Below, piece by piece: positions 2,664 through 26,357 of a DNA stretch of 27,702 nucleotides. A model generated the notes under the pieces. That model made no database searches. It was given only the letters and a program-made list of their open reading frames with translations, and was not told where the DNA came from. The position numbers were made by a program, and so were the translations under genes. The first letter of the stretch is position 1, and each line of letters opens with the position of its first letter. The stretch is from the IMG/VR virus record IMGVR_UViG_2706794664_000004; one strand, written 5' to 3'. Source of the DNA: a virus (taxonomy: Duplodnaviria > Heunggongvirae > Uroviricota > Caudoviricetes).

Positions 2664-2937
2664 NNNNNNNNNNNNNNNNNNNNNNNNNNNNNNNNNNNNN
2701 NNNNNNNNNNNNNNNNNNNNNNNNNNNNNNNNNNNNNNNNNNNNNNNNNNNNNNNNNNNNNNNNNNNNNNNNNNNNNNNNNNNNNNNNNNNNNNNNNNNN
2801 NNNNNNNNNNNNNNNNNNNNNNNNNNNNNNNNNNNNNNNNNNNNNNNNNNNNNNNNNNNNNNNNNNNNNNNNNNNNNNNNNNNNNNNNNNNNNNNNNNNN
2901 NNNNNNNNNNNNNNNNNNNNNNNNNNNNNNNNNNNNN

Positions 2938-5047
2938 CTGATCCTGCTGCAACAGGGCGGTCAGGTGAAGGACTCCTTCGGCGGGATGATCCCCATGTTC
3001 AGGGGGCTTGCCGATGCGATCACCCTGCCGATGGTCGGGGTCACCTCGCTGGCGGTGGCGACAGGTGCACTGGTGTACGCCTGGTACCAGGGAGATTCCA
3101 CGCTTTCAGCGTTTAATAAAACCCTGGTTCTTTCCGGTAATCAGTCCGGACTGACTGCCGATCGTATGCTGACTCTCTCAAGAGCCGGGCAGGCAGCAGG
3201 GCTGACGTTTAACCAGGCGAGAGAGTCACTGGCAGCCCTGGTGAATGCCGGTGTGCGTGGTGGTGAACAGTTTGATGCCATCAACCAGAGTGTCGCGCGT
3301 TTTGCGTCTGCATCCGGTGTGGAGGTGGATAAAGTCGCTGAAGCCTTCGGGAAGCTGACCACTGACCCGACGTCGGGACTGATGGCGATGGCGCGCCAGT
3401 TCCGTAACGTGACGGCAGAGCAGATTGCGTATGTTGCACAGCTGCAGCGTTCCGGAGACGAGGCCGGGGCATTGCAGGCGGCGAACGATATCGCCACGAA
3501 AGGCTTTGATGAGCAGACCCGTCGCCTGAAAGAAAACATGGGAACACTGGAGACCTGGGCGGATAAAACAGGGAAGGCATTCAAATCGATGTGGGATGCC
3601 ATTCTGGATATCGGTCGTCCGGAATCCTCAGCGGATATGCTCGCCAGTGCGCAGAAGGCATTTGATGAGGCGGATAAAAAATGGCAGTGGTACCAGAGTC
3701 GGAGCCAGCGCCGCGGTAAAACCTCCTCTTTCCGGGCCAACCTTCAGGGCGCATGGGATGACCGGGAAAATGCCCGTCTGGGTCTGGCAGCGGCAACGCT
3801 GCAGTCGGATATGGAAAAAGCCGGTGAACTGGCGGCAAGGGACAGGGCTGAGCGTGAGTCGTCACAGCTGAAGTATACCGGAGAGGCGCAGAAGGCGTAT
3901 GAGCGCCTGCTGACGCCACTGGAGAAATATACCGCCCGGCAGGAAGAGCTGAATAAGGCCCTGAAAGACGGGAAAATCCTGCAGGCGGATTACAACACGC
4001 TGATGGCGTCGGCAAAAAAGGATTATGAGTCGACGCAGAAAAAGCCGTCCGGTGTGAAGGTGTCTGCCGGTGAGCGCCAGGAAGACCAGGCGCATGCAGC
4101 CCTGCTGGCGCTTGAAACTGAGCTCAGGACGCTGGAGAAGCACAGCGGTGCGAATGAAAAAATCAGCCAGCAGCGCCGTGATTTATGGAAAGCGGAAAAT
4201 CAGTATGTGGTCCTGAAAGAGGCCGCCACGAAACGGCAGTTATCTGAGCAGGAAAAATCCCTGCTGGCCCATGAGAAAGAAACGCTGGAGTACAAACGCC
4301 AGCTGGCTGAGCTGGGCGACAAGATTGAACACCAGAAACGGCTGAATGAGCTGGCACAGCAGGCGGCGCGGTTTGAACAGCAGCAGAGCGCGAAGCAGGC
4401 GGCAATCAGCGCAAAAGCCCGCGGACTCACCGACCGTCAGGCGCAGCGGGAGTCGGAAGAGCAGCGCCTTCGTGAGGTGTACGGTGATAATCCGGCTGCG
4501 CTGGCGAAGGCCACATCTGCACTGAAGAACACCTGGTCTGCGGAGGAGCAGCTTCGTGGAAGCTGGATGGCCGGGATGAAGTCCGGCTGGGGCGAGTGGG
4601 CGGAAAGTGCGACGGACAGTTTTTCGCAGGTTAAAAACGCGGCCACGCAGACCTTTGACGGTATTGCACAGAATATGGCAGCGATGCTGATCGGCAGCNN
4701 NNNNNNNNNNNNNNNNNNNNNNNNNNNNNNNNNNNNNNNNNNNNNNNNNNNNNNNNNNNNNNNNNNNNNNNNNNNNNNNNNNNNNNNNNNNNNNNNNNNN
4801 NNNNNNNNNNNNNNNNNNNNNNNNNNNNNNNNNNNNNNNNNNNNNNNNNNNNNNNNNNNNNNNNNNNNNNNNNNNNNNNNNNNNNNNNNNNNNNNNNNNN
4901 NNNNNNNNNNNNNNNNNNNNNNNNNNNNNNNNNNNNNNNNNNNNNNNNNNNNNNNNNNNNNNNNNNNNNNNNNNNNNNNNNNNNNNNNNNNNNNGGGAGT
5001 TTGTCTTCACGAAGGAGGCGACCAGCCGGATTGGTGTCGGCAATCTG
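2938..5047 (+). CDS. H: tail tape measure protein, lambda gpH homologue; both ends inside N-runs
   Basis: Visible translation LILLQQGGQVKDSFGGMIPMFRGLADAITLPMVG...QAIAYVAQLQRSGDEAGALQAAND...KYTARQEELNKALKDGKILQADYNTLMA is collinear with lambda gpH. Island 4997-5047 reads EFVFTKEATSRIGVGNL (gpH C-terminal motif) but in a different frame from the upstream segment. Confidence 0.85.
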
Positions 5048-5297
5048 NNNNNNNNNNNNNNNNNNNNNNNNNNNNNNNNNNNNNNNNNNNNNNNNNNNNN
5101 NNNNNNNNNNNNNNNNNNNNNNNNNNNNNNNNNNNNNNNNNNNNNNNNNNNNNNNNNNNNNNNNNNNNNNNNNNNNNNNNNNNNNNNNNNNNNNNNNNNN
5201 NNNNNNNNNNNNNNNNNNNNNNNNNNNNNNNNNNNNNNNNNNNNNNNNNNNNNNNNNNNNNNNNNNNNNNNNNNNNNNNNNNNNNNNNNNNNNNNNN

Positions 5298-6530: not shown

Positions 6531-6805
6531 NNNNNNNNNNNNNNNNNNNNNNNNNNNNNNNNNNNNNNNNNNNNNNNNNNNNNNNNNNNNNNNNNNNNNN
6601 NNNNNNNNNNNNNNNNNNNNNNNNNNNNNNNNNNNNNNNNNNNNNNNNNNNNNNNNNNNNNNNNNNNNNNNNNNNNNNNNNNNNNNNNNNNNNNNNNNNN
6701 NNNNNNNNNNNNNNNNNNNNNNNNNNNNNNNNNNNNNNNNNNNNNNNNNNNNNNNNNNNNNNNNNNNNNNNNNNNNNNNNNNNNNNNNNNNNNNNNNNNN
6801 NNNNT

Positions 6806-7294
6806 GCCGGTTATGACACGGCACCGGAGGCGGTGTACGCCCGTCTTCACGAACAGCTGGGTGAGGGAACGGTCATCCACATTGTGCCGCGACTGGCCGG
6901 GGCCGGAAAGGGTGGACTGCAGATTGTGCTGGGGGCGGCAGCCATCGTGGGCTCTTTCTTCACTGCCGGGGCATCAATGGCGTTATGGGGTTCAGCCCTG
7001 GCAGCCGGTGGTTTTTCTGCCACCACGATGCTGTTTTCACTTGGAGCCAGCATGATTCTGGGCGGTGTGGCCCAGATGCTGGCCCCGAAGGCAAAAACAC
7101 CGGATTACCGCGCAACGGATAACGGCAGACAGAACACGTACTTTTCCTCACTGGATAACATGATTGCCCAGGGGAACCCGATGCCGGTGCCTTACGGGGA
7201 AATGCTGGTTGGCTCCCGCCGTATATCCCAGGACATCAGCACCCGTGATGAAGGCGGGGGCGGAAAGGTCGTGGTTATCGGGCGGCAGGGGTAA
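6806..7294 (+). CDS. I: tail assembly protein, lambda gpI homologue; 5' part inside N-run
   Basis: After N-run: AGYDTAPEAVYARLHEQLGEGTVIHIVPRLAGAGKGGLQIVLGAAAIVGSFFTAG...NTYFSSLDNMIAQGNPMPVPYGEMLVGSRRISQDISTRDEGGGGKVVVIGRQG*, matching lambda gpI C-terminal two-thirds. Confidence 0.85.
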   Translation, partial: AGYDTAPEAVYARLHEQLGEGTVIHIVPRLAGAGKGGLQIVLGAAAIVGSFFTAGASMALWGSALAAGGFSATTMLFSLGASMILGGVAQMLAPKAKTPDYRATDNGRQNTYFSSLDNMIAQGNPMPVPYGEMLVGSRRISQDISTRDEGGGGKVVVIGRQG

Positions 7295-7339
7295 AAAGAA
7301 TAAAAAAATCCCGCAGTGATCGCGGACAGGAACTGCGGG
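7294..7339 (-). terminator. rho-independent terminator oriented for the minus strand
   Basis: Stem CCCGCAGT (7310-7317) / ACTGCGGG (7332-7339), 14-nt loop. On the + strand it is preceded by AAAAAGAATAAAAAAAT (7293-7309), so on the minus strand the hairpin is followed by a U-tract. Confidence 0.55.
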
Positions 7340-7397
7340 AGAGTTACGAAGATTAAGTGTAAGGAATTATTCTTATATCACGACAAAAAAATTAACG
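7296..7397 (-). ncRNA. candidate ~100-nt small RNA between promoter at 7405-7432 and terminator at 7294-7339
   Basis: Minus-strand -35 TTCACA, 16-bp spacer, -10 TATAAT, about 60 nt upstream of a minus-strand intrinsic terminator. Intervening RNA has no plausible ORF (only GUG-AUA-UAA). Confidence 0.3.
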
Positions 7398-7404
7398 CAG
7401 AGAA

Positions 7405-7432
7405 ATTATACGCGCCACAGTCAGTTTGTGAA
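7405..7432 (-). promoter_or_regulatory. sigma70-like promoter on minus strand (-35 TTCACA / 16 bp / -10 TATAAT)
   Basis: Minus-strand sequence TTCACAaactgactgtggcgcgTATAAT; + strand coordinates: -10 at 7405-7410 (attata), -35 at 7427-7432 (tgtgaa). Confidence 0.45.
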
Positions 7433-7504
7433 AATGTGAAGATATTCAGAATTTTTATGCCATTACCGGTTTTAACCAACAGGATTATCGGTGGGCATGA
7501 AAGA

Positions 7505-7540
7505 AAACCCCGGTATCTGCTGATACCGGGGTTTCTCTTT
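7505..7540. terminator. strong hairpin, possible bidirectional terminator or insulator
   Basis: Perfect 13-bp stem AAACCCCGGTATC (7505-7517) / GATACCGGGGTTT (7522-7534) with 4-nt loop TGCT; T-rich on both flanks. Confidence 0.45.
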
Positions 7541-7637
7541 AGCATGGCAGAAATGTGTTTCATGCTTTTCGGGCGAAGGATATCCGACTTCTGTACGGAA
7601 TGGCAAGTGGCGGTTAATTTATTCAGGGGAAGGCTGT

Positions 7638-10600
7638 ATGGGAAAAGGTGGCGGTAAGGCACACACGCCTCGTGAGGCGAAGGATAATCTCAAATCCACG
7701 CAGATGATGAGCGTGATTGATGCGATTGGTGAGGGACTGATAGAAGGTCCGGTGAAGGGACTGCAGAGTATCCTGGTGAACAAAACCCCGCTGACGGACA
7801 CGGACGGTAATCCCGTGATACACGGTGTGACGGCGGTCTGACGCGCCGGGGAGCAGGAGCAGACACCACCGGAAGGCTTTGAGTCCTCCGGTGCTGAAAC
7901 CGGACTGGGCGTGGAAGTGACGAAGGCAAAACCGGTGACGCGCACCATTACGTCCGCGAACATTGACCGCCTGCGGGTTACCTTCGGGGTGCAGTCACTG
8001 GTGCAGACCACGTCAAAGGGTGACCGAAACCCGACATCCGTCCGCCTGCTGATTCAGTTACAGCGTAACGGTAACTGGGTGACAGAAAAGGATGTCACCA
8101 TTAACGGCAAGACCACCTCGCAGTTTCTGGCGTCGGTGATTCTGGATAATCTGCCTCCCCGTCCTTTTAACATCCGGATGGTCCGGGAGACAGCGGACAG
8201 CACCACGGACCAGCTGCAGAATAAGACGCTGTGGTCGTCATACACCGAAATCATCGATGTGAAACAGTGCTACCCGAACACGGCCATTGTGGGGCTGCAG
8301 GTGGATGCGGAGCAGTTCGGCGGCCAGCAGATGACGGTGAACTACCATATCCGCGGTCGCATCATCCAGGTGCCGTCAAACTATGACCCGGAAAAACGCA
8401 CGTACAGTGGTATCTGGGACGGTAGCCTGAAACCGGCATACAGCAACAATCCGGCCTGGTGTCTGTGGGACATGCTGACTCACCCGCGCTACGGCATGGG
8501 AAAACGTCTGGGGGCGGCGGATGTGGACAAGTGGGCGCTGTATGCCATCGGGCAGTACTGCGACCAGACGGTCCCGGATAGTTTCGGGGAGACCGAGCCG
8601 CGGATGACCTTCAATGCGTACCTGGCACAACAGCGTAAGGCATGGGACGTGCTCAGTGATTTCTGCTCGGCGATGCGCTGTATGCCGGTATGGAACGGCC
8701 AGACGCTGACGTTTGTTCAGGACCGCCCGTCGGATGTGGTGTGGCCGTACACCAACAGCGATGTGGTGGTGGATGATAACGGCGTGGGTTTCCGCTACAG
8801 CTTCAGTGCCCTGAAGGACCGGCACACGGCGGTGGAGGTGAATTATACCGACCCGCAGAACGGCTGGCAGACCTCCACGGAACTGGTGGAAGACCCGGAA
8901 GCCATACTGCGCTACGGACGCAACCTGCTGAAGATGGACGCGTTCGGCTGTACCAGCCGCGGTCAGGCCCACCGTGCCGGACTGTGGGTGATAAAGACCG
9001 AACTGCTGGAAACGCAGACGGTGGATTTCACGCTCGGGTCTCAGGGGCTGCGGCACACACCCGGTGACATCATTGAAATCTGTGATAACGACTATGCCGG
9101 GACCCTGACCGGCGGACGTGTCCTGTCCATTGATGCTGCCACCCGCACTCTGACGCTGGACCGTGAAGTGACACTTCCGGAGACCGGTGCCGCCACGGTG
9201 AACCTGATTAACGGCAGCGGTAAGCCGGTGAGTGTGGACATCACCGAACACCCCGCGCCGGACCGGATACAGGTCAGTACCCTGCCTGATGGTGTGGAGA
9301 CATACGGGGTGTGGGGACTCTCCCTGCCGTCACTGCGCCGTCTCCTGTTCCGCTGTGTCTCCGTCCGGGAAAACACGGACGGCACCTTTGCCATCACGGC
9401 GGTGCAGCACGTACTGGAAAAAGAAGCCATCGTGGATAACGGTGCCCGCTTTGAGCCGCAGTCAGGTTCCCTGAACAGCGTCATCCCACCGGCAGTGCAG
9501 CACCTGACGGCCAGTATCTGGCGCAGGCGAAATGGGACACGCCGCGGGTGGTGAAGGGTGTGCGCTTCAGTCTGCGCCTGACCAGTGGTAAGGGAACGGA
9601 TGCCAGACTGGTGACCACCGCCATCACCGCAGACACGGAGCACCGTTTCAGCGGCCTGCCGCTCGGGGAATACACCCTGACGGTGCGGGCGATAAACAGC
9701 TATGGCCAGCAGGGTGAACCTGCCACCACCACCTTCCGGATTGCCGCACCGGCAGCACCGTCGCGGATTGAGCTGACGCCGGGCTATTTTCAGATAACCG
9801 CAACGCCGCATCTTGCCGTTTATGACCCGACGGTACAGTTTGAGTTCTGGTTCTCGGAAAAGCGGATTGCGGATATCAGGCAGGTTGAAACCAGCGCCCG
9901 CTATCTTGGCACGGCGCTGTACTGGATAGCCGCCAGTATCAATATCAAACCGGGCCATGATTATTATTTTTACGTTCGCAGTGTGAACACCGTTGGCAAA
10001 TCGGCATTCGTGGAGGCTGTCGGTCGGGCGAGCGATGATGCGGAAGGTTACTTGGATTTTTTCAAAGGAGAGATAGGGAAAACACATCTGGCTCAGGAGC
10101 TGTGGACGCAGATTGATAACGGTCAGCTTGCGCCTGACCTGGCTGAAATCAGGACGTCCATTACGGATGTCAGCAATGAAATCACGCAGACTGTCAATAA
10201 GAAACTGAAAGACCAGAGTGCGGCAATCCAGCAGATACAGAAGGTTCAGGTTGATACAAATAATAATCTGAACAGCATGTGGGCTGTGAAGCTGCAACAG
10301 ATGAAGGACGGACGCCTTTATATTGCGGGTATCGGTGCCGGTATTGAGAATACGCCAGCAGGAATGCAGAGTCAGGTGCTGCTGGCGGCAGACAGGATTG
10401 CGATGATTAATCCTGCGAATGGCAACACAAAGCCGATGTTTGTTGGTCAGGGCGATCAGATATTCATGAACGACGTGTTCCTGAAACGCCTGACGGCTCC
10501 CACCATTACCAGCGGCGGTAATCCTCCGGCATTTTCCCTGACACCGGACGGAAAACTGACCGCTAAAAATGCAGATATCAGTGGCAGTGTGAATGCGAAC

Positions 10601-11089
10601 GCCGGGACGCTCAACAATGTCACAATTAATGAGAACTGTCAGATTAAGGGGAAACTGTCAGCCAACCAGATTGAAGGCGATATAGTCAAAACAGTGGGTA
10701 AGGCTTTTCCGCGGGACTCCCGGGCACCGGAGCGGTGGCCATCAGGGACCATTACCGTCAGGATTTATGACGATCAGCCTTTTGACAGGCAAATTGTTAT
10801 TCCGGCGGTGGCATTCAGCGGCGCTAAACATGAGCGGGAGAATAACGATATTTATTCGTCATGCCGCCTGATAGTACGGAAAAACGGTGCTGAAATTTAT
10901 AACCGTACCGCGCTGGATAATACGCTGATTTACAGTGGTGTTATTGATATGCCAGCTGGTCGCGGCCACATGACGCTGGAGTTTTCGGTGTCAGCATGGC
11001 TGGTGAATAACTGGTATCCCACAGCAAGTATCAGCGATTTGCTGGTTGTGGTGATGAAGAAAGCCACCGCAGGCATCAGTATCAGCTGA
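7638..11089 (+). pseudogene. J: central tail fibre / host specificity protein, lambda gpJ homologue, disrupted by an in-frame TGA (7839-7841) and a frameshift near 9506-9515
   Basis: Three ORF pieces (7638-7841, 7911-9554, 9548-11089) are collinear with lambda gpJ from MGKGGGKAHTPREAKDNLKSTQ to the C-terminus. Frame 0 continues in homology through the TGA (TAV*RAGEQEQTPPEGFESSG). Homology switches from frame 0 (PPAVQHLTA) to frame 2 ([17 protein letters not shown]) near 9510. Confidence 0.8.
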
Positions 11090-11156: not shown

Positions 11157-11760
11157 ATGCGTAAAGTTTGTGCAGCCATTTTGTCCGCAGCCATCTGTCT
11201 GTCCGTATCCGGTGCGCCTGCATGGGCGTCTGAACATCAGTCCACACTGAGCGCGGGGTATCTTCATGCCCGTACGAACGCTCCCGGCAGCGATAATCTG
11301 AACGGGATTAACGTGAAATACCGTTATGAGTTTACGGACGCGCNNNNNNNNNNNNNNNNNNNNNNNNNNNNNNNNNNNNNNNNNNNNNNNNNNNNNNNNN
11401 NNNNNNNNNNNNNNNNNNNNNNNNNNNNNNNNNNNNNNNNNNNNNNNNNNNNNNNNNNNNNNNNNNNNNNNNNNNNNNNNNNNNNNNNNNNNNNNNNNNN
11501 NNNNNNNNNNNNNNNNNNNNNNNNNNNNNNNNNNNNNNNNNNNNNNNNNNNNNNNNNNNNNNNNNNNNNNNNNNNNNNNNNNNNNNNNNNNNNNGACCGG
11601 AAGTGATGACGGTCGCCACAGCAACACGTCTCTGGCGTGGGGGGCTGGCGTGCAGTTTAACCCGACCGAATCCGTGACCATTGACCTTGCTTATGAAGGT
11701 TCCGGTAGTGGTGACTGGCGAACGGATGCATTTATTGTTGGTATCGGATACCGTATCTGA
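11157..11760 (+). CDS. lom: Lom/Ail/PagC-family outer membrane protein (lambda Lom homologue); middle hidden in N-run
   Basis: N-terminus MRKVCAAILSAAICLSVSGAPAWA (signal peptide) ...NGINVKYRYEFTDA and C-terminus ...SLAWGAGVQFNPTESVTIDLAYEGSGSGDWRTDAFIVGIGYRI* match lambda Lom beta-barrel motifs. N- and C-terminal parts are in different frames across N-run 11344-11594. Confidence 0.8.
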
Positions 11761-14691: not shown

Positions 14692-15225
14692 ATGCAGCAT
14701 TTAAAAAACATTGTCGCAGGTAATCCAAAAACCGTTGAACAATACCAGCTAACAAAGAATTTTGATGTTATCTGGTTATGGTCCGAAGATGGAAAAAATT
14801 GGCATGAGGAATTAAAAAACTTTCAGGAGGATACAATAAAACTGGCTTACACAGTTGAGGGAATAATTATTGCTATAGACAAGGATGTATCAGCAATTAA
14901 TCCAGAAGGTTTAAGTGTCGTTGAGTTGCCTGATATTACAGCAAATCGCCGGGCTGATATTTCGGGCAACTGGATGTTCAAAGATGGTGCGGTGATAAAG
15001 CGAACTTATACCGAGGAAGAGCAAAGGCAACAAGCGGAAAATGAAAAGCAGAGCCTGCTGCAGCTCGTCAGGGATAAAACCCAGCTGTGGGACTCTCAGC
15101 TACAGCTGGGCATCATTTCCGATGAGAATAAACAAAAATTAACCGAGTGGATGCTCTATGCGCAGAAGGTTGAATCCACAGACACCTCCAGCCTGCCAGT
15201 AACGTTTCCCGAACAACCAGAATGA
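14692..15225 (+). CDS. tfa: tail fibre assembly protein Tfa (partner of cassette v1)
   Basis: 177-aa [43 protein letters not shown]...[10 protein letters not shown]...; Tfa-family motifs; immediately after the fibre C-terminus. Confidence 0.85.
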
Positions 15226-15300
15226 GAGAAGGCCCGCTATCGGGCCTTAATTTTTATTCAGGCTTTTGTGGCCATTCAGGATTTGCCGTATCCACACGGC
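14929..15300. repeat. direct repeat copy 1 (tfa 3' half plus shared terminator plus 3' end of minus-strand tfa)
   Basis: About 370 bp, roughly 90% identical by eye to 17998-18369 (for example cctgatattacagcaaatcgccgggctgatattt... and aaggcccgctatcgggccttaatttttattcaggcttttgtggccattc). Confidence 0.8.
15229..15258. terminator. bidirectional intrinsic terminator between convergent tfa genes
   Basis: AAGGCCCG-CTAT-CGGGCCTT followed by AATTTTTATT; sits between the + tfa stop (15225) and the minus tfa stop (15254). Confidence 0.6.
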
Positions 15301-15781
15301 TGACCAGAACACTGTAGCGTTCCCATGCTTCCAGTCGTGTGCGTTCCTCGTCTGTTGCCATATTCAGCCTGACAGCGCGTTCCAGCGGCTGGATGACTGA
15401 TTCAGCTTCGGAAAGCAATGCGGCCTTTTGTGATTCGGCCTGTTGTTGCTGTTCGTCAGCCGTATAAATCCGTTTAACCACAGCTCCGTCCTTAAACATC
15501 CACTTACCGGAATCATCAGCACGACGATTAGCTGTAATATCAGGAACTTCAACTATGCTTAGCCCTTCAGGATTAATAGTTGAAACGTCTTTACTGACAG
15601 CAACGATGATGTTGTTCTCATCGTAAGCAATTTTTATGGTGTCTGGCTGAAAATTCTTTTGTTCCTCATACCAGTTTTTGCCATCTTCGCAAAAGAGCCA
15701 TACCACGCCCGCTTTTTTAGTTAGCTGGTATTGTTCCGGTGTTTTCGGATTCCCGGCCTTAATATTTTTCAGGTGCATCAT
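15254..15781 (-). CDS. tfa: tail fibre assembly protein Tfa (partner of cassette v2)
   Basis: Minus-strand ORF; likely start at ATGATG 15776-15781 ([23 protein letters not shown]...) preceded by SD GGGGAG; ORF track begins 12 codons further upstream. C-terminus ...[14 protein letters not shown]. Confidence 0.8.
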
Positions 15782-15782
15782 C

Positions 15783-16696
15783 TTAAACACTCCCCACGTT
15801 GTACCATATTCCCCCAATCAATTTCTGAATTGGCCTTCTGGCAACAGTGTCGACAATATCATCCGCATTGCTGTTAATTGCGGCTGTTAAAACATAACCT
15901 GACGCATCGCCAAAGCCGTAGTCGCGCCATACGTTTTTATATTCAATGCTGCCAAGACGAATATCCCGAACGACATGATTATGCAGCCATGTGCTTAACC
16001 AGTTGTTTTCCCACACTGAACCATAAATATCGCCACTAGACGCAACTTGCGCACCACTTCCCAGCGCAAATCCCCCATCTGTTTTAAAAATGAAATCACC
16101 ACCACCATCTGAACCGTTATTAATATGAACACCATCACCACCGTTATCTTTCCACAAAAACATACGAATTCTTCCGTCTTCGTTGGCGAATGTAATGTGG
16201 TGGCGGTAATTACTTTTTAATCTAAAATTGCTGCCATTAGATTCAATATCTTTATAAAGATGTAATCCTAACTCATCAATATGTCCGATACGCGAACCAT
16301 TTGAATAGAAGCTAATAATACCATCTCCATCTTGCCTAAATCCGGTGTCGTTATCTCCCAGAACAATGGAGTTTTCACCCAGTGCGTTATCAGTAGCTCC
16401 AATAGCTAGACCTCCTTTAATTTTGGCCCCGTGGCTGACAGATATAGCACCTGTTCTCAGATTTATAGCGAATGGCCTTAATGGGCCGATATTACCGTTT
16501 TCGCCTTGTCCTTCAGCCGTCGGAATGAAATGAAGAAAATCTTCTGAACGACGGAAAATTAGACCGAAGGTATCATTGAAAATTCGCAGCGCATTCACCG
16601 TGCCAATTTTCAGTTCTCCGGTCATTTTATCGCCGGAACGCTGAACGGCGTTACCAGCCTTGTTTACCGTTTCCTGTAAACCGAGGTATTCGATAA
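15783..16696 (-). CDS. silent alternative tail-fibre C-terminal cassette v2 (no own start; 5' end is crossover site B)
   Basis: Minus-strand frame reads [41 protein letters not shown]...[18 protein letters not shown]; first 8 residues identical to the Stf junction peptide; upstream is N-run. Confidence 0.75.
16671..16696 (-). other. invertase crossover site B (inverted relative to site A)
   Basis: + strand TTCCTGTAAACC-GA-GGTATTCGATAA; reverse complement TTATCGAATACCTCGGTTTACAGGAA. Confidence 0.7.
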
Positions 16697-16981
16697 CGGC
16701 NNNNNNNNNNNNNNNNNNNNNNNNNNNNNNNNNNNNNNNNNNNNNNNNNNNNNNNNNNNNNNNNNNNNNNNNNNNNNNNNNNNNNNNNNNNNNNNNNNNN
16801 NNNNNNNNNNNNNNNNNNNNNNNNNNNNNNNNNNNNNNNNNNNNNNNNNNNNNNNNNNNNNNNNNNNNNNNNNNNNNNNNNNNNNNNNNNNNNNNNNNNN
16901 NNNNNNNNNNNNNNNNNNNNNNNNNNNNNNNNNNNNNNNNNNNNNNNNNNNNNNNNNNNNNNNNNNNNNNNNNNNNNNNNG

Positions 16982-17758
16982 GAGAGTCAGGGAGCATTTA
17001 ACCATCCTTACTGGATGTGCAAAGGCTCATGGGCTTATGCAAATAATAAGGTCATTACAGATACAGGTTGCGGAAATATTTGTCTTGCAGGTGCTGTGGT
17101 GGAAGTTATTGGCACTCGCGGCGCAATGACCATACGCGTTACCACGCCGAGCACGTCCAGCGGTGGCGGAATTACTAACGCTCAATTCACTTATATTAAT
17201 CATGGTGATGCTTACGCTCCTGGCTGGCGACGAGACTACAACACGAAAAATCAACAACCTGCATTTGCTTTAGGGCAAACAGGAAGCACTGTCGGAAATG
17301 ATAAAGCTGTTGGCTGGAACTGGAATAGCGGGGTCTATAACGCAAACATTGGTGGCGCATCGACATTAATCCTCCACTTCAATATGAATACGGGGAGCTG
17401 CCCTGCTGTACAGTTCCGCGTGAATTACAGGAACGGCGGTATTTTTTATCGTTCAGCGCGTGATGGTTATGGCTTTGAAGCTGACTGGTCAGAGTTTTAC
17501 ACCACAACCCGCAAACCCTCTGCGGGAGATGTTGGTGCATATACGCAGGCAGAATGTAACTCAAGGTTTATTACAGGTATTCGCCTTGGTGGTCTGTTAT
17601 CTGTTCAGACATGGAATGGTCCCGGATGGTCTGACAGGTCAGGTTATGTTGTTACCGGTTCCGTTAACTCAAACAGAGATGAACTAATTGATACAACTCA
17701 GGCAAGGCCAATTCAGTATTGCATTAATGGGACGTGGTATAACGCGGGGAGTATTTAA
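16982..17758 (+). CDS. alternative tail-fibre C-terminal cassette v3 (+ orientation; 5' end and presumed crossover site inside N-run)
   Basis: Open frame from 16982 (ESQGAFNHPYWMCKGSWAYANN...) to TAA 17756-17758. Central module AFALGQTGSTVGNDKAVGWNWNSGVYNANIGGASTLILHFNMNTGSCPAVQFRVNYRNGGIFYRSARDGYGFEADWSEFYTT is about 85% identical to stf v1; C-terminus RPIQYCINGTWYNAGSI. Confidence 0.75.
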   Translation, partial: ESQGAFNHPYWMCKGSWAYANNKVITDTGCGNICLAGAVVEVIGTRGAMTIRVTTPSTSSGGGITNAQFTYINHGDAYAPGWRRDYNTKNQQPAFALGQTGSTVGNDKAVGWNWNSGVYNANIGGASTLILHFNMNTGSCPAVQFRVNYRNGGIFYRSARDGYGFEADWSEFYTTTRKPSAGDVGAYTQAECNSRFITGIRLGGLLSVQTWNGPGWSDRSGYVVTGSVNSNRDELIDTTQARPIQYCINGTWYNAGSI

Positions 17759-17760
17759 CG

Positions 17761-18294
17761 ATGATGCACTTAAAAAACATTTCTGCTGGTAATCCTGAAA
17801 CAAAAGAGCAATACCAGCTAACGAAACAATTTAACATCAAATGGCTTTATACAGAGGATGGGAAAAACTGGTATGAGGAACAAAAGAACTTTCAGCCTGA
17901 TACGTTGAAAATGGTCTATGACCACAACGGCGTTATTATTTGTATTGAAAAGGATGTTTCAGCAATTAATCCGGAAGGCGCAAGCGTCGTTGAGGTTCCT
18001 GATATTACAGCAAATCGCCGGGCTGATATTTCAGGTAAATGGATGTTCAAAGATGGCGTAGTGATAAAGCGAACTTATACCGGGGAAGAGCAGAGGCAAC
18101 AAGCGGAAAATGAAAAGCAAAGCCTGCTACAGCTCGTCAGGGATAAAACCCAGCTATGGGACTCACAGCTACGGCTGGGCATTATTTCCGACGAGAATAA
18201 ACAAAAATTAACCGAGTGGATGCTCTATGCGCAGAAGGTCGAATCCACAGACACCTCCAGCCTGCCAGTAACGTTTCCCGAACAACCAGAATGA
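17761..18294 (+). CDS. tfa: tail fibre assembly protein Tfa (partner of cassette v3)
   Basis: 177-aa [43 protein letters not shown]...; C-terminal half near-identical to the tfa at 14692-15225. Confidence 0.85.
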   Translation: MMHLKNISAGNPETKEQYQLTKQFNIKWLYTEDGKNWYEEQKNFQPDTLKMVYDHNGVIICIEKDVSAINPEGASVVEVPDITANRRADISGKWMFKDGVVIKRTYTGEEQRQQAENEKQSLLQLVRDKTQLWDSQLRLGIISDENKQKLTEWMLYAQKVESTDTSSLPVTFPEQPE

Positions 18295-18369
18295 AACAAG
18301 GCCCGATATCGGGCCTTAATTTTTACTCAGGCTTTTGTGGCCATTCTGGCTTTGCCGTATCCACACGGC
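17998..18369. repeat. direct repeat copy 2 (paralogous to 14929-15300)
   Basis: See copy 1; ends at N-run 18370. Confidence 0.8.
18298..18327. terminator. bidirectional intrinsic terminator between convergent tfa genes (paralogue of 15229-15258)
   Basis: AAGGCCCG-ATAT-CGGGCCTT followed by AATTTTTACT. Confidence 0.6.
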
Positions 18370-18910
18370 NNNNNNNNNNNNNNNNNNNNNNNNNNNNNNN
18401 NNNNNNNNNNNNNNNNNNNNNNNNNNNNNNNNNNNNNNNNNNNNNNNNNNNNNNNNNNNNNNNNNNNNNNNNNNNNNNNNNNNNNNNNNNNNNNNNNNNN
18501 NNNNNNNNNNNNNNNNNNNNNNNNNNNNNNNNNNNNNNNNNNNNNNNNNNNNNNNNNNNNNNNNNNNNNNNNNNNNNNNNNNNNNNNNNNNNNNNNNNNN
18601 NNNNNNNNNNNNNNNNNNNNNNNNNNNNNNNNNNNNNNNNNNNNNNNGCCCGGCGATTTGCTGTAATATCAGGAACCTCAACGACGCTATAACCTTCAGG
18701 GTTAAGCGTGGAGGCATCTTTGGTGATGGCGACAATAATATTATTTGCATCGTAAACAATCTTTATTGTGTCTGGCTGAAAGTTCTTCACTTCCTCATAC
18801 CAGTTTTTTCCGTCCTCAGAGTAAAGCCAGATGACTCCGTGCTTCTTTGTTAACTCATACTGCTCCACTGTTTTAGCATTACCTGCTTTTATGTTCTTTA
18901 AGTGCATCAT
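18323..18910 (-). CDS. tfa: tail fibre assembly protein Tfa (partner of cassette v4); middle hidden in N-run
   Basis: Minus-strand ORF, likely start ATGATG 18905-18910 ([40 protein letters not shown]...), C-terminus [14 protein letters not shown]. Confidence 0.75.
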
Positions 18911-18911
18911 A

Positions 18912-19940
18912 TTAAATACTCGCCACATTATACCAAGTGCCATTTATATACTTTTGCACTGGCCTGTAATGAACGCCTGCAATATTATCGGCAGAGTTTT
19001 TTCCGGTATCCTGTACGTTAATCCCCGTCAGTACATAGCCTGACGGGCACTGAAAATTCCATGTTTGCCAGTTGTTCACTCCATAATATTGCTGTGAACC
19101 AAGTCGAACATCTTTCACATATCTGGAATCAAAATTGCCATAGTTGCCGGGAATAACTTGCGAGCCGCAAAGCCAGTTCCCGTTATTATCCATGTACGCC
19201 TGACCATCGGTGCCATTGGCTGTCCTTGAGTTATTAATCATGTAGATGCCAAATTGCTTATTTCCCAGACCGCCAATCATAAATTTGCGGTCGGCATGGT
19301 CCTGACGGAGCAAAGCCTGAGCACCATCAGTGGATACCGCATTACGTCCCAAAATAACATTCTGGTCACGCATATGAATCCACATGCCGGTACTACTGTT
19401 AATTGCAAAACGGTTTGCAAATATATCCCCTGTAACATCAAGACCATGCCCCATGCTTATCCGGCCAGTTCTGAGATTAAGCGTAAAGGGGCGTAGTGGC
19501 CCTATATTACCATTTTCCCCTTCATTCTCTCGTGTAGGGATGATATGCAGGCATTCTTCAGAACGACGAAAAATGGCACCAAAAGATGAATTAAATATCC
19601 TCAGTGCATTGACTGTCGATATTTTCACTTCACTGCTGAAAAGGGCTTCAACAAGAACAGACAAAGCATTCCATTTAAGATTCATCAGGTCTTTAGGCCG
19701 GGTGCCAATGATGCGGTGTCTCCATTTGAAATATTCATTGCCGTTGTTGCCTGTTTCAAACCACATGTAGGAATCGGTGTCTGCATCCGAATTATTTTTA
19801 AACCCAATCTTTGCCCAGTCAGTATTTCGAATCCAGGCAAGGATTGAGTCGTTTTCAAAAGTAAGTCCACCGGACAACGTATCGCCATTTTTTTGCACGG
19901 CGTTACCAGCCTTGTTTACCGTTTCCTGTAAACCGAGGTT
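18912..19940 (-). CDS. silent alternative tail-fibre C-terminal cassette v4 (no own start; reaches into crossover site C)
   Basis: Minus frame reads [31 protein letters not shown]...[18 protein letters not shown]; an in-frame TAA (+ 19941-19943) lies just upstream, so it is only translated after fusion to stf. ORF track starts at internal Met (19898). Confidence 0.75.
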
Positions 19941-19948
19941 TTAGATAA
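19923..19948 (-). other. invertase crossover site C (gix-like, next to the invertase gene)
   Basis: + strand TTCCTGTAAACC-GA-GGTTTTAGATAA, one mismatch from Mu gixL as I recall it; same orientation as site B, inverted relative to site A. Confidence 0.75.
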
Positions 19949-20002
19949 TGGCCGTTTCCGGCCTGCATGGCATGATTTGCGCTTTTGGACGGGAGATTCA
20001 GC

Positions 20003-20590
20003 GTGCTGATTGGCTATGTAAGGGTATCAACAAATGACCAGAATACAGACCTGCAACGAAACGCTCTTGTTTGTGCAGGATGTGAACAAATATTTGAAGA
20101 TAAATTAAGCGGGACAAAGACAGACCGACCGGGATTAAAACGCGCTTTAAAGCGCCTTCAAAAAGGTGACACGCTGGTTGTCTGGAAACTGGATCGCCTC
20201 GGGCGAAGCATGAAACATCTGATTTCTCTCGTCGGGGAACTACGGGAGCGAGGAATTAATTTTCGCAGTCTGACCGACAGCATAGATACATCTTCTCCAA
20301 TGGGGCGTTTTTTCTTCCACGTGATGGGTGCCCTGGCTGAAATGGAACGTGAATTAATTGTTGAACGTACACTGGCCGGACTGGCGGCAGCACGCGCACG
20401 GGGGCGCACAGGCGGACGTCGACCGAAGCTGACAAAAGAACAGCATGAGCAAATAGCAAGGCTGATCAAAAACGGGCACGACAGAAAACAACTGGCAATA
20501 ATTTACGGCATTGGTATATCGACGATTTATCGTTACCACCCCGCAGGAGAATCAATCGGAACAATAGAGAAGAGTCAGGAAACAAAATAA
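20003..20590 (+). CDS. pin: site-specific DNA invertase, serine recombinase of the Pin/Gin/Hin/Cin family
   Basis: GTG 20003 with SD GGGAGA 6 nt upstream; VLIGYVRVSTNDQNTDLQRNALVCAGCEQIFEDKLSGTKTDRPGLKRALKRLQKGDTLVVWKLDRLGRSMKHLISLVGELRERGINFRSLTDSIDTSSPMGRFFFHVMGALAEMERELIVERT... is near-identical to E. coli Pin from memory; catalytic Ser in YVRVST. ORF track extends 6 codons upstream to TTG 19985. Confidence 0.9.
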   Translation: MLIGYVRVSTNDQNTDLQRNALVCAGCEQIFEDKLSGTKTDRPGLKRALKRLQKGDTLVVWKLDRLGRSMKHLISLVGELRERGINFRSLTDSIDTSSPMGRFFFHVMGALAEMERELIVERTLAGLAAARARGRTGGRRPKLTKEQHEQIARLIKNGHDRKQLAIIYGIGISTIYRYHPAGESIGTIEKSQETK

Positions 20591-20625: not shown

Positions 20626-21120
20626 TCAGAACAACCCTTTAACTGAACTGGCCGCGCTGTTAAGGGATGATGTTACCTTATCTTTGAAGCCGGACAGCAT
20701 ATCGCTGAACGATGAGGATTGCAGGCGCTCCCGCAAATCCTCATCACAGCGTTCAAGAGTCAGTGAAAATTCTATCTTTTTCGCCTTACCGTAGCGATCA
20801 AACTCGGAGCGGGTCGTATTCGTTTCGGTCAGGACATACATGCCGTAAATCTGCCCGACGCCATCAATCAGAGGCCAGGGTCGTCCTGTATACGCCTGCG
20901 TGGTCAGCAGCGACAGCGACACTTCGCCACCTGTAATTTCAGGATAAAGCACACCAGAAAGAACGATGCGCTCATCACCTGCACCGATATACTGCCAGCT
21001 TGCCGAACGGTTAACGCGTTCATTTTTCACATGCCGCCAGCTTTTGTTTTGCTGTAACTGCTGATGCGGCAATGTACGCAGCTCAAAAACAAACATGCCG
21101 TAGATCATCATCATGGCCAT
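20626..21120 (-). CDS. U: P2 gpU-like tail protein
   Basis: 164-aa minus ORF MAMMMIYGMFVFELRTLPHQQLQQNKSWRHVKNERV...GVLYPEITGGEVSLSLL...KKIEFSLTLERCDED..., SD GAGGAG; position after tape measure as in P2. Confidence 0.8.
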   Translation of the reverse strand: MAMMMIYGMFVFELRTLPHQQLQQNKSWRHVKNERVNRSASWQYIGAGDERIVLSGVLYPEITGGEVSLSLLTTQAYTGRPWPLIDGVGQIYGMYVLTETNTTRSEFDRYGKAKKIEFSLTLERCDEDLRERLQSSSFSDMLSGFKDKVTSSLNSAASSVKGLF

Positions 21121-21126
21121 GACTCC

Positions 21127-23910: not shown

Positions 23911-23939
23911 CAGGCGGCGGGCGTTTTCGGCAGGCCGGG

Positions 23940-24449
23940 TCAGCCTGTCAACGGCGCTGAAAGCGACCCGGATATCAAGAGTCNNNNNNNNNNNNNNNNN
24001 NNNNNNNNNNNNNNNNNNNNNNNNNNNNNNNNNNNNNNNNNNNNNNNNNNNNNNNNNNNNNNNNNNNNNNNNNNNNNNNNNNNNNNNNNNNNNNNNNNNN
24101 NNNNNNNNNNNNNNNNNNNNNNNNNNNNNNNNNNNNNNNNNNNNNNNNNNNNNNNNNNNNNNNNNNNNNNNNNNNNNNNNNNNNNNNNNNNNNNNNNNNN
24201 NNNNNGTCGCGGTGATGTCACGCGTGACAGCAGCGTAAACATGGATTCCGCTTTCAAATTCAGCACATCAGACAGCGACAAATCTCGCAGAGATCCAGCC
24301 TGCTCAATAGCCCCGGTGATCTCCACATACGTGATTTTTTCGCCGCCTCGCTCAATTGGTTGGGTAAGTTTTACGCCACGCTCACTGGTTTCTTTCACAG
24401 TGTCAGCAACGACCGTGTTTTCGGTATCGATGTTTTTCGTCTCTTTCAT
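23940..24449 (-). CDS. E: tail assembly chaperone (P2 gpE/E+E'-like); 3' two-thirds inside N-run, end approximate
   Basis: Visible N-terminus MKETKNIDTENTVVADTVKETSERGVKLTQPIERGGEKITYVEITGAIEQAGSLRDLSLSDVL..., SD AAAGGAG; small gene between tube and tape measure as in P2. Confidence 0.6.
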   Translation of the reverse strand: MKETKNIDTENTVVADTVKETSERGVKLTQPIERGGEKITYVEITGAIEQAGSLRDLSLSDVLNLKAESMFTLLSRVTSPRXXXXXXXXXXXXXXXXXXXXXXXXXXXXXXXXXXXXXXXXXXXXXXXXXXXXXXXXXXXXXXXXXXXXXXXXXXXLLISGSLSAPLTG

Positions 24450-24503
24450 CAGGAAACTCCTTTCAGTCAGAGGCGACGCACTGCGCCGCCTGCATATTAC
24501 TTA

Positions 24504-25016
24504 TCAGCCAAGCCCGAGCGCGGAACGGATGCGATCGGGCACAATGTCCCTGCCGTCCTTCCGGTAAATGAAGTTCAGCAGGTCAATCTCCCACAACGGG
24601 CGATCGTTAACACTCAGCTTGTAGTAGGTGTTTTTAATGGCGTAAGTGTGTGATGTGGCTTCGCCCTGTTTGGCTTCCCCCATATCAATTTCCGTCACAC
24701 GTCCGCGCATTTCGACTTCATACAGGTCGCTTTCAGCGTCGGTGTAGTATTCACCCGCAAAACGCAGCAGCGTACCGTCAATCGTGCCGCCATACTTAAG
24801 GAACAGCTCACGAACTGCGCCCCCCATGACAAAGCTCGCATCAAGCGCGGAGTCATCCAGGCCGAGATCAATACTTACCGCTCCCATCATGCCACCACCC
24901 CGGTAGCTGTCGGTTTTGCGCGTCAGCTTAGGCAGAGTGACGGACGTCACCTTACCCACTTCGTTTTCACCATCCACAAACAGCGTAAAAAAGCGAAGAT
25001 GTTTTGGTACAGCCAT
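24504..25016 (-). CDS. FII: tail tube protein (P2 gpFII-like)
   Basis: 170-aa minus ORF MAVPKHLRFFTLFVDGENEVGKVTSVTLPKLTRKTDSYRGGGMMGAVSIDLGLDD...; start overlaps FI stop (ATGA). Confidence 0.85.
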   Translation of the reverse strand: MAVPKHLRFFTLFVDGENEVGKVTSVTLPKLTRKTDSYRGGGMMGAVSIDLGLDDSALDASFVMGGAVRELFLKYGGTIDGTLLRFAGEYYTDAESDLYEVEMRGRVTEIDMGEAKQGEATSHTYAIKNTYYKLSVNDRPLWEIDLLNFIYRKDGRDIVPDRIRSALGLG

Positions 25017-26200: not shown

Positions 26201-26357
26201 AGCTTCAACCCCTTGTATCCGTTAAATGATTCGGCAACAATCATCACCCACCACGCGCGTAATCTCACCCCTGCGCCATTCTCCCGCCACGGCGACAACA
26301 AAAAGCAGTAACCCCCTCCGCACGCACATGCGACCATGCCACACAGGGAGGGAGCAG

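What the first reader, a model, noticed from the sequence alone, without database searches (positions are those of the whole stretch)
7294..7540. Roughly 280-bp AT-rich insert between I and J with a minus-strand promoter and terminator: candidate small-RNA moron antisense to the tail operon
Seen: the I-J gap is 343 bp here; in lambda it is about 60 bp (from memory). It contains a near-consensus sigma70 promoter on the minus strand (-35 TTCACA, 16 bp, -10 TATAAT; + coordinates 7405-7432), a minus-oriented intrinsic terminator about 60-100 nt downstream (7294-7339), and a perfect 13-bp hairpin (7505-7534) on the other side. The predicted ~100-nt transcript has no credible ORF. Inference: a self-contained transcription unit inserted in the tail operon, possibly a regulatory sRNA.
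Basis: partly seen in the sequence, partly recalled or inferred. Interest (0 to 1): 0.55.

Follow-up and report, generated by a model that had tools for sequence, protein, structure and literature searches.

The report
Known prophage small RNA gene, pasB

Summary
These are the 343-bp I-J gap (60 bp in lambda), the minus-strand promoter TTCACA-16-TATAAT (7432..7405), a minus-strand terminator (stem 7309-7340 plus U7 at 7302-7308) and a perfect 13-bp hairpin (7505-7534).

The promoter-to-terminator unit is the pasB locus. PasB is an 83-nt, Hfq-dependent small RNA found by RIL-seq and confirmed by northern blot in EPEC E2348/69. It lies between the same two tail genes on the same strand, and its northern probe matches window 7307-7326 at 20 of 23 bases.

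The promoter and terminator are nearly identical to E2348/69, but the RNA body is only about 51% identical. A word-28 blastn with published PasB, as in the 2026 PasB survey, finds nothing in the window. This version is at least 99% identical in 634 complete E. coli records, including CFT073.

The most likely mode of action is Hfq-assisted pairing with mRNAs in trans, through a conserved unpaired stretch (UCCUU...AUCUU). That is inferred for this allele, not shown.

The 13-bp hairpin belongs to a separate mosaic block. Lambda and E2348/69 carry unrelated hairpins at the same place.

Verdict: real, correctly interpreted, essentially already known; low interest.

The parts
7292..7294 (+). Stop codon of tail assembly gene I, the left boundary of the gap.
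   Evidence: ORF list and sequence; aligned with I of E2348/69, CFT073 and lambda.
7302..7340 (-). pasB intrinsic terminator: stem 7340-7332 / 7317-7309, then U7 (7308-7302). It works in one direction only; the + strand has no T-run after the stem.
   Evidence: The stem CCCGCAG/CUGCGGG and the U-tract are invariant in 18 aligned alleles. The published PasB 3' end maps to 7302. The northern probe matches 7307-7326 at 20 of 23 bases.
7302..7398 (-). Predicted primary pasB transcript, 97 nt, starting at the G that lies 7 nt after the -10 hexamer. The published, coverage-based 5' end of the E2348/69 RNA maps to about 7384, which corresponds to the 83-nt form.
   Evidence: Promoter geometry, alignment A1, fold.
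7349..7368 (-). Conserved, mostly unpaired core of the RNA (AAUUCCUUACACUUAAUCUUC; UCCUU at 7365-7361, AUCUU at 7353-7349). This is the candidate seed. An (ARN)3 run, AAG-AAU-AAU, lies just 5' of it.
   Evidence: AUCUU is invariant and UCCUU nearly invariant among 18 alleles. Unpaired probability is 0.5-0.97. These bases pair with ler and bfpI RIL-seq fragments, though not significantly against shuffles.
7405..7432 (-). pasB sigma-70 promoter: -35 TTCACA (7432-7427), 16-nt spacer, -10 TATAAT (7410-7405).
   Evidence: The -10 reads [T/A/G]ATAAT and the 16-nt spacing is kept in all 38 variants. The -35 lay inside the search pattern, so its invariance is by construction.
7433..7461 (.). Conserved A/T-rich block upstream of the -35. 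It is the right-hand mosaic junction. It contains TGTGA-N6-TCAGA (7435-7450), which resembles a CRP site, but its spacing from the predicted start is non-standard.
   Evidence: Near-identical in window, E2348/69 and PPompW; homology to E2348/69 ends at about 7461. The resemblance to a CRP site is my own reading and is untested.
7462..7637 (.). Separate 176-bp mosaic block between the pasB promoter and the J ribosome-binding site.
   Evidence: Absent from E2348/69. 100% identical in phage PPompW, which carries the other pasB body. At least 99% identical in 1442 E. coli records, with no annotated feature under the match in the 29 full-length listed hits.
7502..7540 (.). Perfect 13-bp hairpin (7505-7517 / 7522-7534) with imperfect T-runs on both strands; terminator-like. 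It is the analogue of the hairpins found upstream of J in lambda and E2348/69.
   Evidence: z = -5.7 and -5.9. Not called by the terminator scan. The lambda and E2348/69 hairpins are.
7638..11089 (+). Tail tip gene J, here a pseudogene: a stop at codon 68 (7839-7841, G to A at 7841) and a 22-nt deletion at about 9511.

Best explanation
Window 7302-7461 is an allele of pasB, a small-RNA gene added to lambda-like prophages between tail genes I and J and pointing against the late operon.

A near-consensus sigma-70 promoter (7432..7405) starts transcription at about 7398. An intrinsic terminator (7340-7309 plus U7) ends it at 7302. The product is a 97-nt primary RNA, possibly trimmed at its 5' U-run to about 83 nt. 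It is made in the lysogen independently of the silent late operon.

The RNA most likely binds Hfq through its terminator hairpin plus U7 tail and an upstream (ARN)n run. It then pairs in trans with host and accessory mRNAs through the conserved unpaired stretch UCCUU...AUCUU.

What is shown for the E2348/69 orthologue: expression, size, Hfq dependence and RIL-seq partners (bfpB, bfpI, ftsZ, galE, ler, perB, rplX). What is inferred here: that this diverged allele is expressed and behaves the same way, the position of the seed, and any regulatory outcome. No target has been validated for any allele.
For: - Same locus and strand as published PasB: between I and J, convergent with I.
- The northern probe matches at 20 of 23 bases, and the 3'-terminal 25 nt are identical.
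- The promoter region is near-identical to E2348/69.
- Alleles fall into a window-like clade and an E2348/69-like clade, with two alleles (L063, L089) at intermediate identity (about 64%) to the window allele; all 38 share the -10 hexamer, the 16-nt spacing and the terminator.
- This is the only sigma-70 match of at least 11/12 in the window.
- There is no ORF in the RNA and no conserved frame across the gap.
- Published data for the orthologue: log2 fold change of -6.8 in a hfq deletion, 37 interactions, second RNA in at least 98.7% of chimeras, and read counts 30-200 times those of the flanking tail genes.
- The gene is intact although the adjacent J gene is disabled.
Against: - There are no expression data for this allele.
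- The RNA body is only about 51% identical to E2348/69 PasB (56% over the whole RNA), so its targets may differ.
- The published 5' end lies about 14 nt downstream of the start predicted from the promoter.
- There is no Rfam family for PasB and no Rfam match in the window.
- Covariation adds nothing: the terminator is invariant and only one pair covaries.
- My complementarity scan against six RIL-seq target fragments was not significant against shuffles (P = 0.37).
- Pearl Mizrahi et al. found no common target motif for PasB.
Confidence: 0.85

Rival explanations
1. The RNA acts mainly in cis. Because it is fully complementary to the I-J intercistronic part of the late mRNA and is transcribed against it, it lowers or uncouples J expression during lytic growth, either by RNase III cleavage of the duplex or by collision of converging polymerases. 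This is not exclusive of the trans mechanism.
For: The RNA converges on the late operon, with 97 nt of perfect complementarity to the late transcript. The gene's position is fixed between I and J in every locus examined.
Against: The RNA overlaps no coding sequence or ribosome-binding site: its 3' end is 8 nt past the I stop and its 5' end is 240 nt from the J start. RIL-seq shows many trans partners. The body varies freely between alleles, and a purely cis antisense RNA would not need a conserved motif. The gene remains intact next to a dead J.
Confidence: 0.15
2. The 13-bp hairpin block (7462-7637) is a second small transcription unit. It would be either a + strand RNA ending at 7540 or a minus-strand RNA running from a weak promoter (7606..7577) to the hairpin.
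For: Both strands fold far better than shuffles (z = -5.7 and -5.9). The block is almost invariant across 1442 records. There is a weak minus-strand promoter-like site matching 9 of 12.
Against: No + strand promoter was found (and my own reading of the sequence). The U-tracts are imperfect and the scan does not call a terminator. There is no Rfam match. Lambda and E2348/69 carry unrelated + strand hairpins at the same place without such a unit, which points to a generic feature of the I-J junction. The stored part of the E2348/69 RIL-seq table has no entry for this intergenic region, but E2348/69 lacks this block, so that says little.
Confidence: 0.12
3. The gap is coding. Candidates are the 113-aa + strand ORF 7316-7657, the 66-aa ORF 7457-7657 (annotated as a hypothetical protein in phage ASU11), or a translated leader of J.
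For: The ORFs exist. One GenBank record annotates the 66-aa ORF.
Against: Gap lengths vary by amounts that are not multiples of three (234-245 and 338-344 nt). Almost none of the 36 distinct gaps has an open frame, and none is shared. No PHROG family matches any of four ORFs. There is no Shine-Dalgarno sequence before the ATG at 7457, and the ORF runs through the 13-bp hairpin. RefSeq leaves the gap unannotated.
Confidence: 0.03
4. The promoter and terminator matches are fortuitous features of an AT-rich recombination linker, and nothing functional is made from this allele.
For: The region is a mosaic joint. There are no direct expression data for this allele.
Against: The promoter match of 11/12 is unique in the window. 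The -10 hexamer, the spacing, the terminator and the U7 tail are kept in 38 variants although the body diverges. The orthologue is abundantly expressed.
Confidence: 0.04

Closest known systems
PasB (E2348CN_0006) of EPEC E2348/69 prophage PP6. Sources: Pearl Mizrahi et al. 2021, Sci Adv, PMC8550237; Zhu, Shabalina and Storz 2026, bioRxiv 10.64898/2026.05.13.724894.
   Same: Same position (I-J gap) and same strand. Near-identical promoter region. Identical 25-nt 3' end with the same terminator stem and U7 tail. Shared 5' leader GCGUUA.U-(U)n-G. Shared UCCUU and AUCUU motifs. Embedded in the phage structural operon, as the 2026 paper describes.
   Different: The body is about 51% identical and the terminator loop is 6 nt longer. 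A blastn search with the 83-nt PasB finds nothing at word size 28 and only 25 nt (30% coverage) at word size 11. It would therefore fail the survey's filters (methods). Expression, Hfq binding and targets of this allele have not been tested.
PasA, PasC and PasD, the other prophage small RNAs of the same studies.
   Same: All are Hfq-dependent small RNAs in intergenic DNA of lambda-like prophages, each with its own terminator and U-tract.
   Different: They sit at a different position (near Q, the lysis genes or the sialate esterase gene) and show no sequence similarity. PasB is genetically unlinked to them.
AgvB and AsxR, the anti-sRNAs of EHEC prophages (Tree et al. 2014, PMC4104026; Rfam RF02702 and RF02703).
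   Same: They are added small-RNA genes in lambda-like prophages. They share the architecture of a variable 5' part joined to a conserved 3' terminator module that is exchanged between prophages.
   Different: They lie downstream of PR' and the Q gene, not in the tail operon. They are 51-60 nt long. There is no Rfam match in the window.
Lambda PreS/LPR1, LPR2 and 6S RNA (bioRxiv 10.1101/2024.10.31.621285).
   Same: They are phage-encoded, Hfq-bound small RNAs that pair with host mRNAs.
   Different: [quoted passage not shown] Lambda has no pasB: its I-J gap is 60 bp.

Membership tests
PasB small-RNA family | Gene lies between tail assembly gene I and tail tip gene J of a lambda-like prophage, on the strand opposite the late operon. 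| tested here: met
   Window: I ends at 7294, J starts at 7638, and the unit is on the minus strand. E2348/69 PasB occupies 1466261-1466343 (minus), between I (ends 1466255) and J (starts 1466496).
PasB small-RNA family | Sequence similarity to the 83-nt E2348/69 PasB. | tested here: inconclusive
   The 3' 25 nt are identical and the probe matches at 20 of 23 bases. Over the whole RNA, identity is 56% (body 51%). There is no blastn hit at word size 28. Homology rests on the shared promoter, leader, motifs and terminator, and on the identical position between I and J; two alleles are of intermediate identity.
PasB small-RNA family | [quoted passage not shown] | tested here: met
   9-bp stem at 7309-7340 plus U7, invariant across alleles.
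PasB small-RNA family | An RNA of about 83 nt that accumulates in the lysogen. | not testable with these tools
   The promoter predicts a 97-nt RNA (7398 to 7302). The published coverage-based 5' end maps about 14 nt further in, right after the 5' U-run. This is compatible with processing or with poor read coverage at the end.
PasB small-RNA family | Hfq-dependent stability and small-RNA-like behaviour in RIL-seq. | not testable with these tools
   Shown only for the E2348/69 allele. The sequence features expected for Hfq binding, U7 and an (ARN)3 run, are present here.
Moron (Juhala et al. 2000 sense) | Extra DNA between two genes that are adjacent in related phages, with its own promoter and terminator and an atypical base composition. 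| tested here: met
   The lambda gap is 60 bp against 343 bp here. The unit has its own promoter and terminator. GC is 36.5% against 58-60% in the flanks. The orthologue is expressed while the flanking tail genes are silent.
AgvB/AsxR anti-sRNA family | Conserved 3' domain of about 42 nt (Rfam RF02702/RF02703) and a position downstream of PR'. | tested here: not met
   No Rfam match at gathering or at E-value thresholds. The gene is in the tail operon, not near Q or PR'.
Classical cis-antisense RNA | Overlaps the coding sequence or ribosome-binding site of the gene on the opposite strand. | tested here: not met
   The RNA spans 7302-7398. The I stop is at 7292-7294 and the J start is at 7638.
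Protein-coding gene or translated J leader | A reading frame conserved among homologous loci. | tested here: not met
   No frame is shared among 36 distinct I-J gaps, and indels are not multiples of three. No PHROG match.

The most novel reading that the evidence does not exclude
The pasB locus may work as a swappable cassette. A fixed promoter and a fixed terminator/Hfq module bracket a body that is exchanged by recombination at the conserved flanks. Two allele clades exist, with two alleles of intermediate identity and separate reassortment of the right-hand block. On this reading, the version carried by CFT073, S88, ATCC 25922 and 634 complete E. coli records is a functionally distinct small RNA with its own regulon, and published PasB surveys have not counted it.
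Probability: 0.3. Interest if true: 0.4.

Novelty: new member of a known kind. Interest (0 to 1): 0.22.

Why it matters
The result shows that reading sequence alone (promoter, terminator and gap size compared with lambda) correctly recovered a small RNA that has been validated by experiment.

There are two practical points. First, the PasB family is broader than the close variants catalogued so far. A diverged allele sits in many extraintestinal E. coli, including standard laboratory strains, and it keeps the promoter and Hfq module but changes much of the pairing region. Second, Rfam has no PasB model, so annotation pipelines leave this gap blank.

Neither point changes what is understood about phage-borne small RNAs.

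Tried and rejected
- **Rfam.** No family matched at gathering thresholds over the whole window. Only chance-level hits appeared at E-values up to 10 over 7150-7750.
- **AgvB/AsxR (my first guess from memory).** Rejected: these lie downstream of PR', not between tail genes.
- **Lambda PreS.** It lies between ea10 and ral, so it is unrelated to the I-J gap.
- **Tree et al. 2014 supplements.** No entry for the ECs2236/ECs2237 neighbourhood, so I could not tell whether an EHEC homologue had been recorded as an EcOnc RNA.
- **Literature searches.** Searches for a small RNA between the tail assembly and host specificity genes, and for a uropathogenic E. coli RIL-seq study, found nothing relevant to this allele.
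- **Covariation.** The terminator is invariant and only one pair covaries (A-U versus G-C, splitting by clade). The covariation term is -0.08 kcal/mol, so structure beyond the terminator is unsupported.
- **Seed test.** RNAduplex gave uninformative whole-length duplexes. A scan for complementary stretches of at least 7 nt against six RIL-seq fragments gave suggestive individual matches (ler 9+7 bp, bfpI 11 bp) but no significant enrichment (P = 0.37 for the E2348/69 RNA, 0.9 for the window RNA).
- **Coding potential.** No conserved frame and no PHROG match.
- **Selective conservation of pasB.** Against the closest intact prophage, substitutions are rare everywhere from 6750 to 8250, so no contrast in rate can be claimed.
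- **+ strand promoter for the hairpin block.** None found (and my own reading of the sequence).
- **Taxonomic range.** A scan of one genome per species found the promoter 24-mer only in E. albertii and in two tiny contigs that are probably contaminants. This agrees with the published restriction to Escherichia and Shigella.

Full report
**Observation**

The window is the tail region of a lambda-like prophage. The genes are Z, U, V, G/T, H, M, L, K, I and J, followed by tail fibres.

I ends at 7294 and J starts at 7638, a gap of 343 bp. In lambda the gap is 60 bp: I ends at 15444 and J starts at 15505.

The promoter scan finds TTCACA-16-TATAAT on the minus strand at 7432..7405, matching 11 of 12. 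It also finds a minus-strand terminator at 7326..7310 followed by ATTTTTTT. The full inverted repeat is 9 bp (7309-7317 / 7332-7340), and the perfect 13-bp hairpin at 7505-7534 is real.

That promoter is the only match of at least 11/12 on either strand of the 27.7-kb window; shuffles predict 0.24 per window. The pasB part of the gap has 36.5% GC, against 58-60% in the flanking genes.

**What it is**

Rfam has nothing here. The literature does.

Pearl Mizrahi et al. 2021 (PMC8550237) found five prophage small RNAs in EPEC E2348/69 by Hfq RIL-seq and confirmed them by northern blot. Their table S6 places PasB on the minus strand of NC_011601.1 at 1466343 to 1466261 (83 nt), between E2348C_1436 and E2348C_1437. 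The probe is AATCCCGCAGTGATCGCGGAGCT.

- Those two genes are the tail assembly gene I (ends 1466255) and J (starts 1466496).
- The probe matches window 7307-7326 at 20 of 23 bases.
- In the pairwise alignment, the end of I, the terminator and the whole promoter region (window 7395-7461) line up almost base for base. The published 3' end falls on window 7302, the last U of the U7 tract.

**Published evidence that the locus makes a functional RNA**

- PasB falls in a hfq deletion: log2 fold change -6.8 under activating conditions and -2.4 under non-activating conditions.
- It has 37 RIL-seq interactions and is the second RNA in 98.7-100% of its chimeras. Both are hallmarks of small RNAs.
- Its read counts (482 and 1082) are 30-200 times those of I and J (5-15). 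It is therefore transcribed on its own while the late operon is silent.
- It is more abundant in static LB culture.
- Its partners under activating conditions are bfpB, bfpI, ftsZ, galE, ler, perB and rplX.
- Its function is stated to be unknown.

**This allele differs from the published one**

I anchored on a 24-mer in the promoter-upstream region and pulled 120 IMG/VR prophage loci. They hold 38 distinct promoter-plus-RNA variants.

All 38 keep these features:

- the 16-nt spacer and a [T/A/G]ATAAT -10 hexamer;
- a 5' leader GCGUUA(A/G)U followed by a run of 5-9 U;
- the motifs UCCUU (nearly invariant) and AUCUU (invariant);
- the terminator stem CCCGCAG/CUGCGGG plus U6-7.

The -35 hexamer lay inside my search pattern, so its constancy proves nothing.

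Between leader and terminator the sequence varies widely. The alleles form a window-like clade and an E2348/69-like clade, and two alleles (L063, L089) are of intermediate identity (about 64%) to the window allele. Pairwise identity ranges from 54% to 99%.

Window and E2348/69 PasB are 56% identical overall and 51% identical in the body. A blastn search with the 83-nt PasB finds nothing in the window at word size 28, and only the 25-nt 3' end at word size 11.

The 2026 survey by Zhu, Shabalina and Storz used word size 28 and required query coverage above 75% for bacterial genomes. It reports that PasB variants differ by only a few nucleotides. So this allele was almost certainly not counted. 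I could not see their supplementary tables to confirm this.

The window allele is at least 99% identical in 634 complete E. coli records, and the 371-bp I-J region is 100% identical in CFT073, S88 and ATCC 25922.

**How it most likely works**

Transcription is predicted to start at the G at 7398, 7 nt after the -10 hexamer, and to stop at 7302, giving 97 nt. The published 5' end was based on read coverage. It maps about 14 nt further in, just after the 5' U-run. That fits either trimming in the U-rich leader or thin read coverage at the end; I cannot tell which.

The RNA has no ORF. Only the terminator is a well-supported structure.

The U7 tail after a GC stem, together with an (ARN)3-5 run upstream, are the usual Hfq contact elements. 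The UCCUU and AUCUU motifs are mostly unpaired in predicted ensembles. Zhu et al. also place the PasB seed in the single-stranded region upstream of the terminator.

In the E2348/69 RNA these bases can pair with the ler fragment (9 + 7 bp) and the bfpI fragment (11 bp). The window RNA keeps the AUCUUC part of both pairings. The enrichment over shuffled targets is not significant. Trans pairing through this stretch is therefore my best inference, not a demonstrated mechanism.

**The 13-bp hairpin**

Homology with E2348/69 stops at about 7461. The 176 bp from 7462 to 7637 form a separate block.

- Phage PPompW combines the E2348/69-type RNA body with a 100% identical copy of this block.
- The block is at least 99% identical in 1442 E. 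coli records, and the 29 full-length listed hits have no annotated feature under the match.
- It folds strongly on both strands (z about -5.7 and -5.9). Its T-runs are imperfect, and the terminator scan does not call it.

The E2348/69-type spacer has instead an unrelated + strand terminator, CAGGCACC-CGGTGA-GGTGCCTG followed by TTGTTTTTG. Its variants change both sides of one pair (C-G to U-A, with a U-G intermediate). Lambda's 60-bp gap also holds a + strand hairpin, AAACCGCC-TGCG-GGCGGTTT followed by TTGTCATTT.

So three unrelated sequences provide the same kind of hairpin just upstream of J. I read this as a general feature of the I-J junction, not a part of pasB. It could be a 3'-end or stability element of the late mRNA, or a stop for transcription not modified by the Q antiterminator. 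Its function is unknown.

**Rivals**

- A cis-antisense role against the late transcript cannot be excluded and may coexist with trans action. However, the RNA overlaps no coding sequence or ribosome-binding site.
- Coding is rejected. Gap lengths differ by amounts that are not multiples of three, no frame is shared among 36 distinct gaps, and no PHROG family matches. One GenBank phage record does annotate the 66-aa ORF 7457-7657.
- A chance promoter and terminator is implausible, given their conservation across a diverging body.

**Context**

J in this window is disabled by a stop at codon 68 (G to A at 7841) and a 22-nt deletion near 9511, compared with an intact J that is 97.7% identical. 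pasB is intact. This fits the published remark that PasB is often found in decaying prophages. Local substitution rates are too low to show selective conservation.

**Verdict**

The only new element is that this widespread allele is diverged enough to have escaped the published survey, and that Rfam lacks a model for the family.

Noticed in passing
window 7638-11089: Tail tip gene J is a pseudogene. G to A at 7841 creates a stop at codon 68, and a 22-nt deletion at about 9511 shifts the frame. The comparison is with the closest intact gpJ (97.7% identical, NZ_CM142696.1). No complete E. coli genome in the collection carries this exact J.
   Followed up: yes
L124 (lambda) 746-805; L002 (E2348/69) about 1425-1460; window 7502-7540: Three unrelated I-J spacers each carry a GC-rich + strand hairpin followed by a T-rich run shortly before the J start. 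Variants of the E2348/69-type hairpin change both sides of one pair. This looks like a general, unexplained feature of the I-J junction in lambda-like phages.
   Followed up: partly
window 7435-7450: TGTGA-N6-TCAGA, which resembles a CRP site, lies in the conserved block upstream of the pasB -35 hexamer. Its centre is about -44.5 from the predicted start, which is not a standard activator position. PasB is reported to be higher in static LB than in virulence-inducing medium.
   Followed up: no
window 14692-20587: This looks like an invertible tail-fibre segment. Alternative fibre C-termini and assembly genes lie on both strands (14692-15225 +, 15254-15814 -, 15783-16994 -, 17015-17758 +, 17761-18294 +). 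A resolvase-type invertase is at 19985-20587.
   Followed up: partly
window 20626-27467: P2-like contractile-tail genes (GpU, tape measure, tube FII, sheath, GpD) directly adjoin the lambda-like non-contractile tail module. This is either two adjacent prophages or a hybrid.
   Followed up: no
window 2664-2937, 4699-4994, 5048-5297, 6531-6804, 11344-11594, 16701-16980, 18370-18647, 23412-23710, 23984-24205: Nine runs of N, each 220-300 nt, mask parts of H, K/I, the lom-like gene and others. None touches the finding.
   Followed up: yes
L125 (Asaia platycodi, 546-bp contig); L127 (Streptomyces flavalbus, 3.4-kb contig): The pasB promoter 24-mer occurs in very short contigs of two unrelated species' assemblies. 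These are most likely E. coli prophage contamination of those assemblies.
   Followed up: no
L001 (CFT073) locus tags C_RS06865 and C_RS06875: The locus-tag numbering skips C_RS06870 exactly at the I-J gap. This suggests that an ORF once annotated there was later withdrawn.
   Followed up: no
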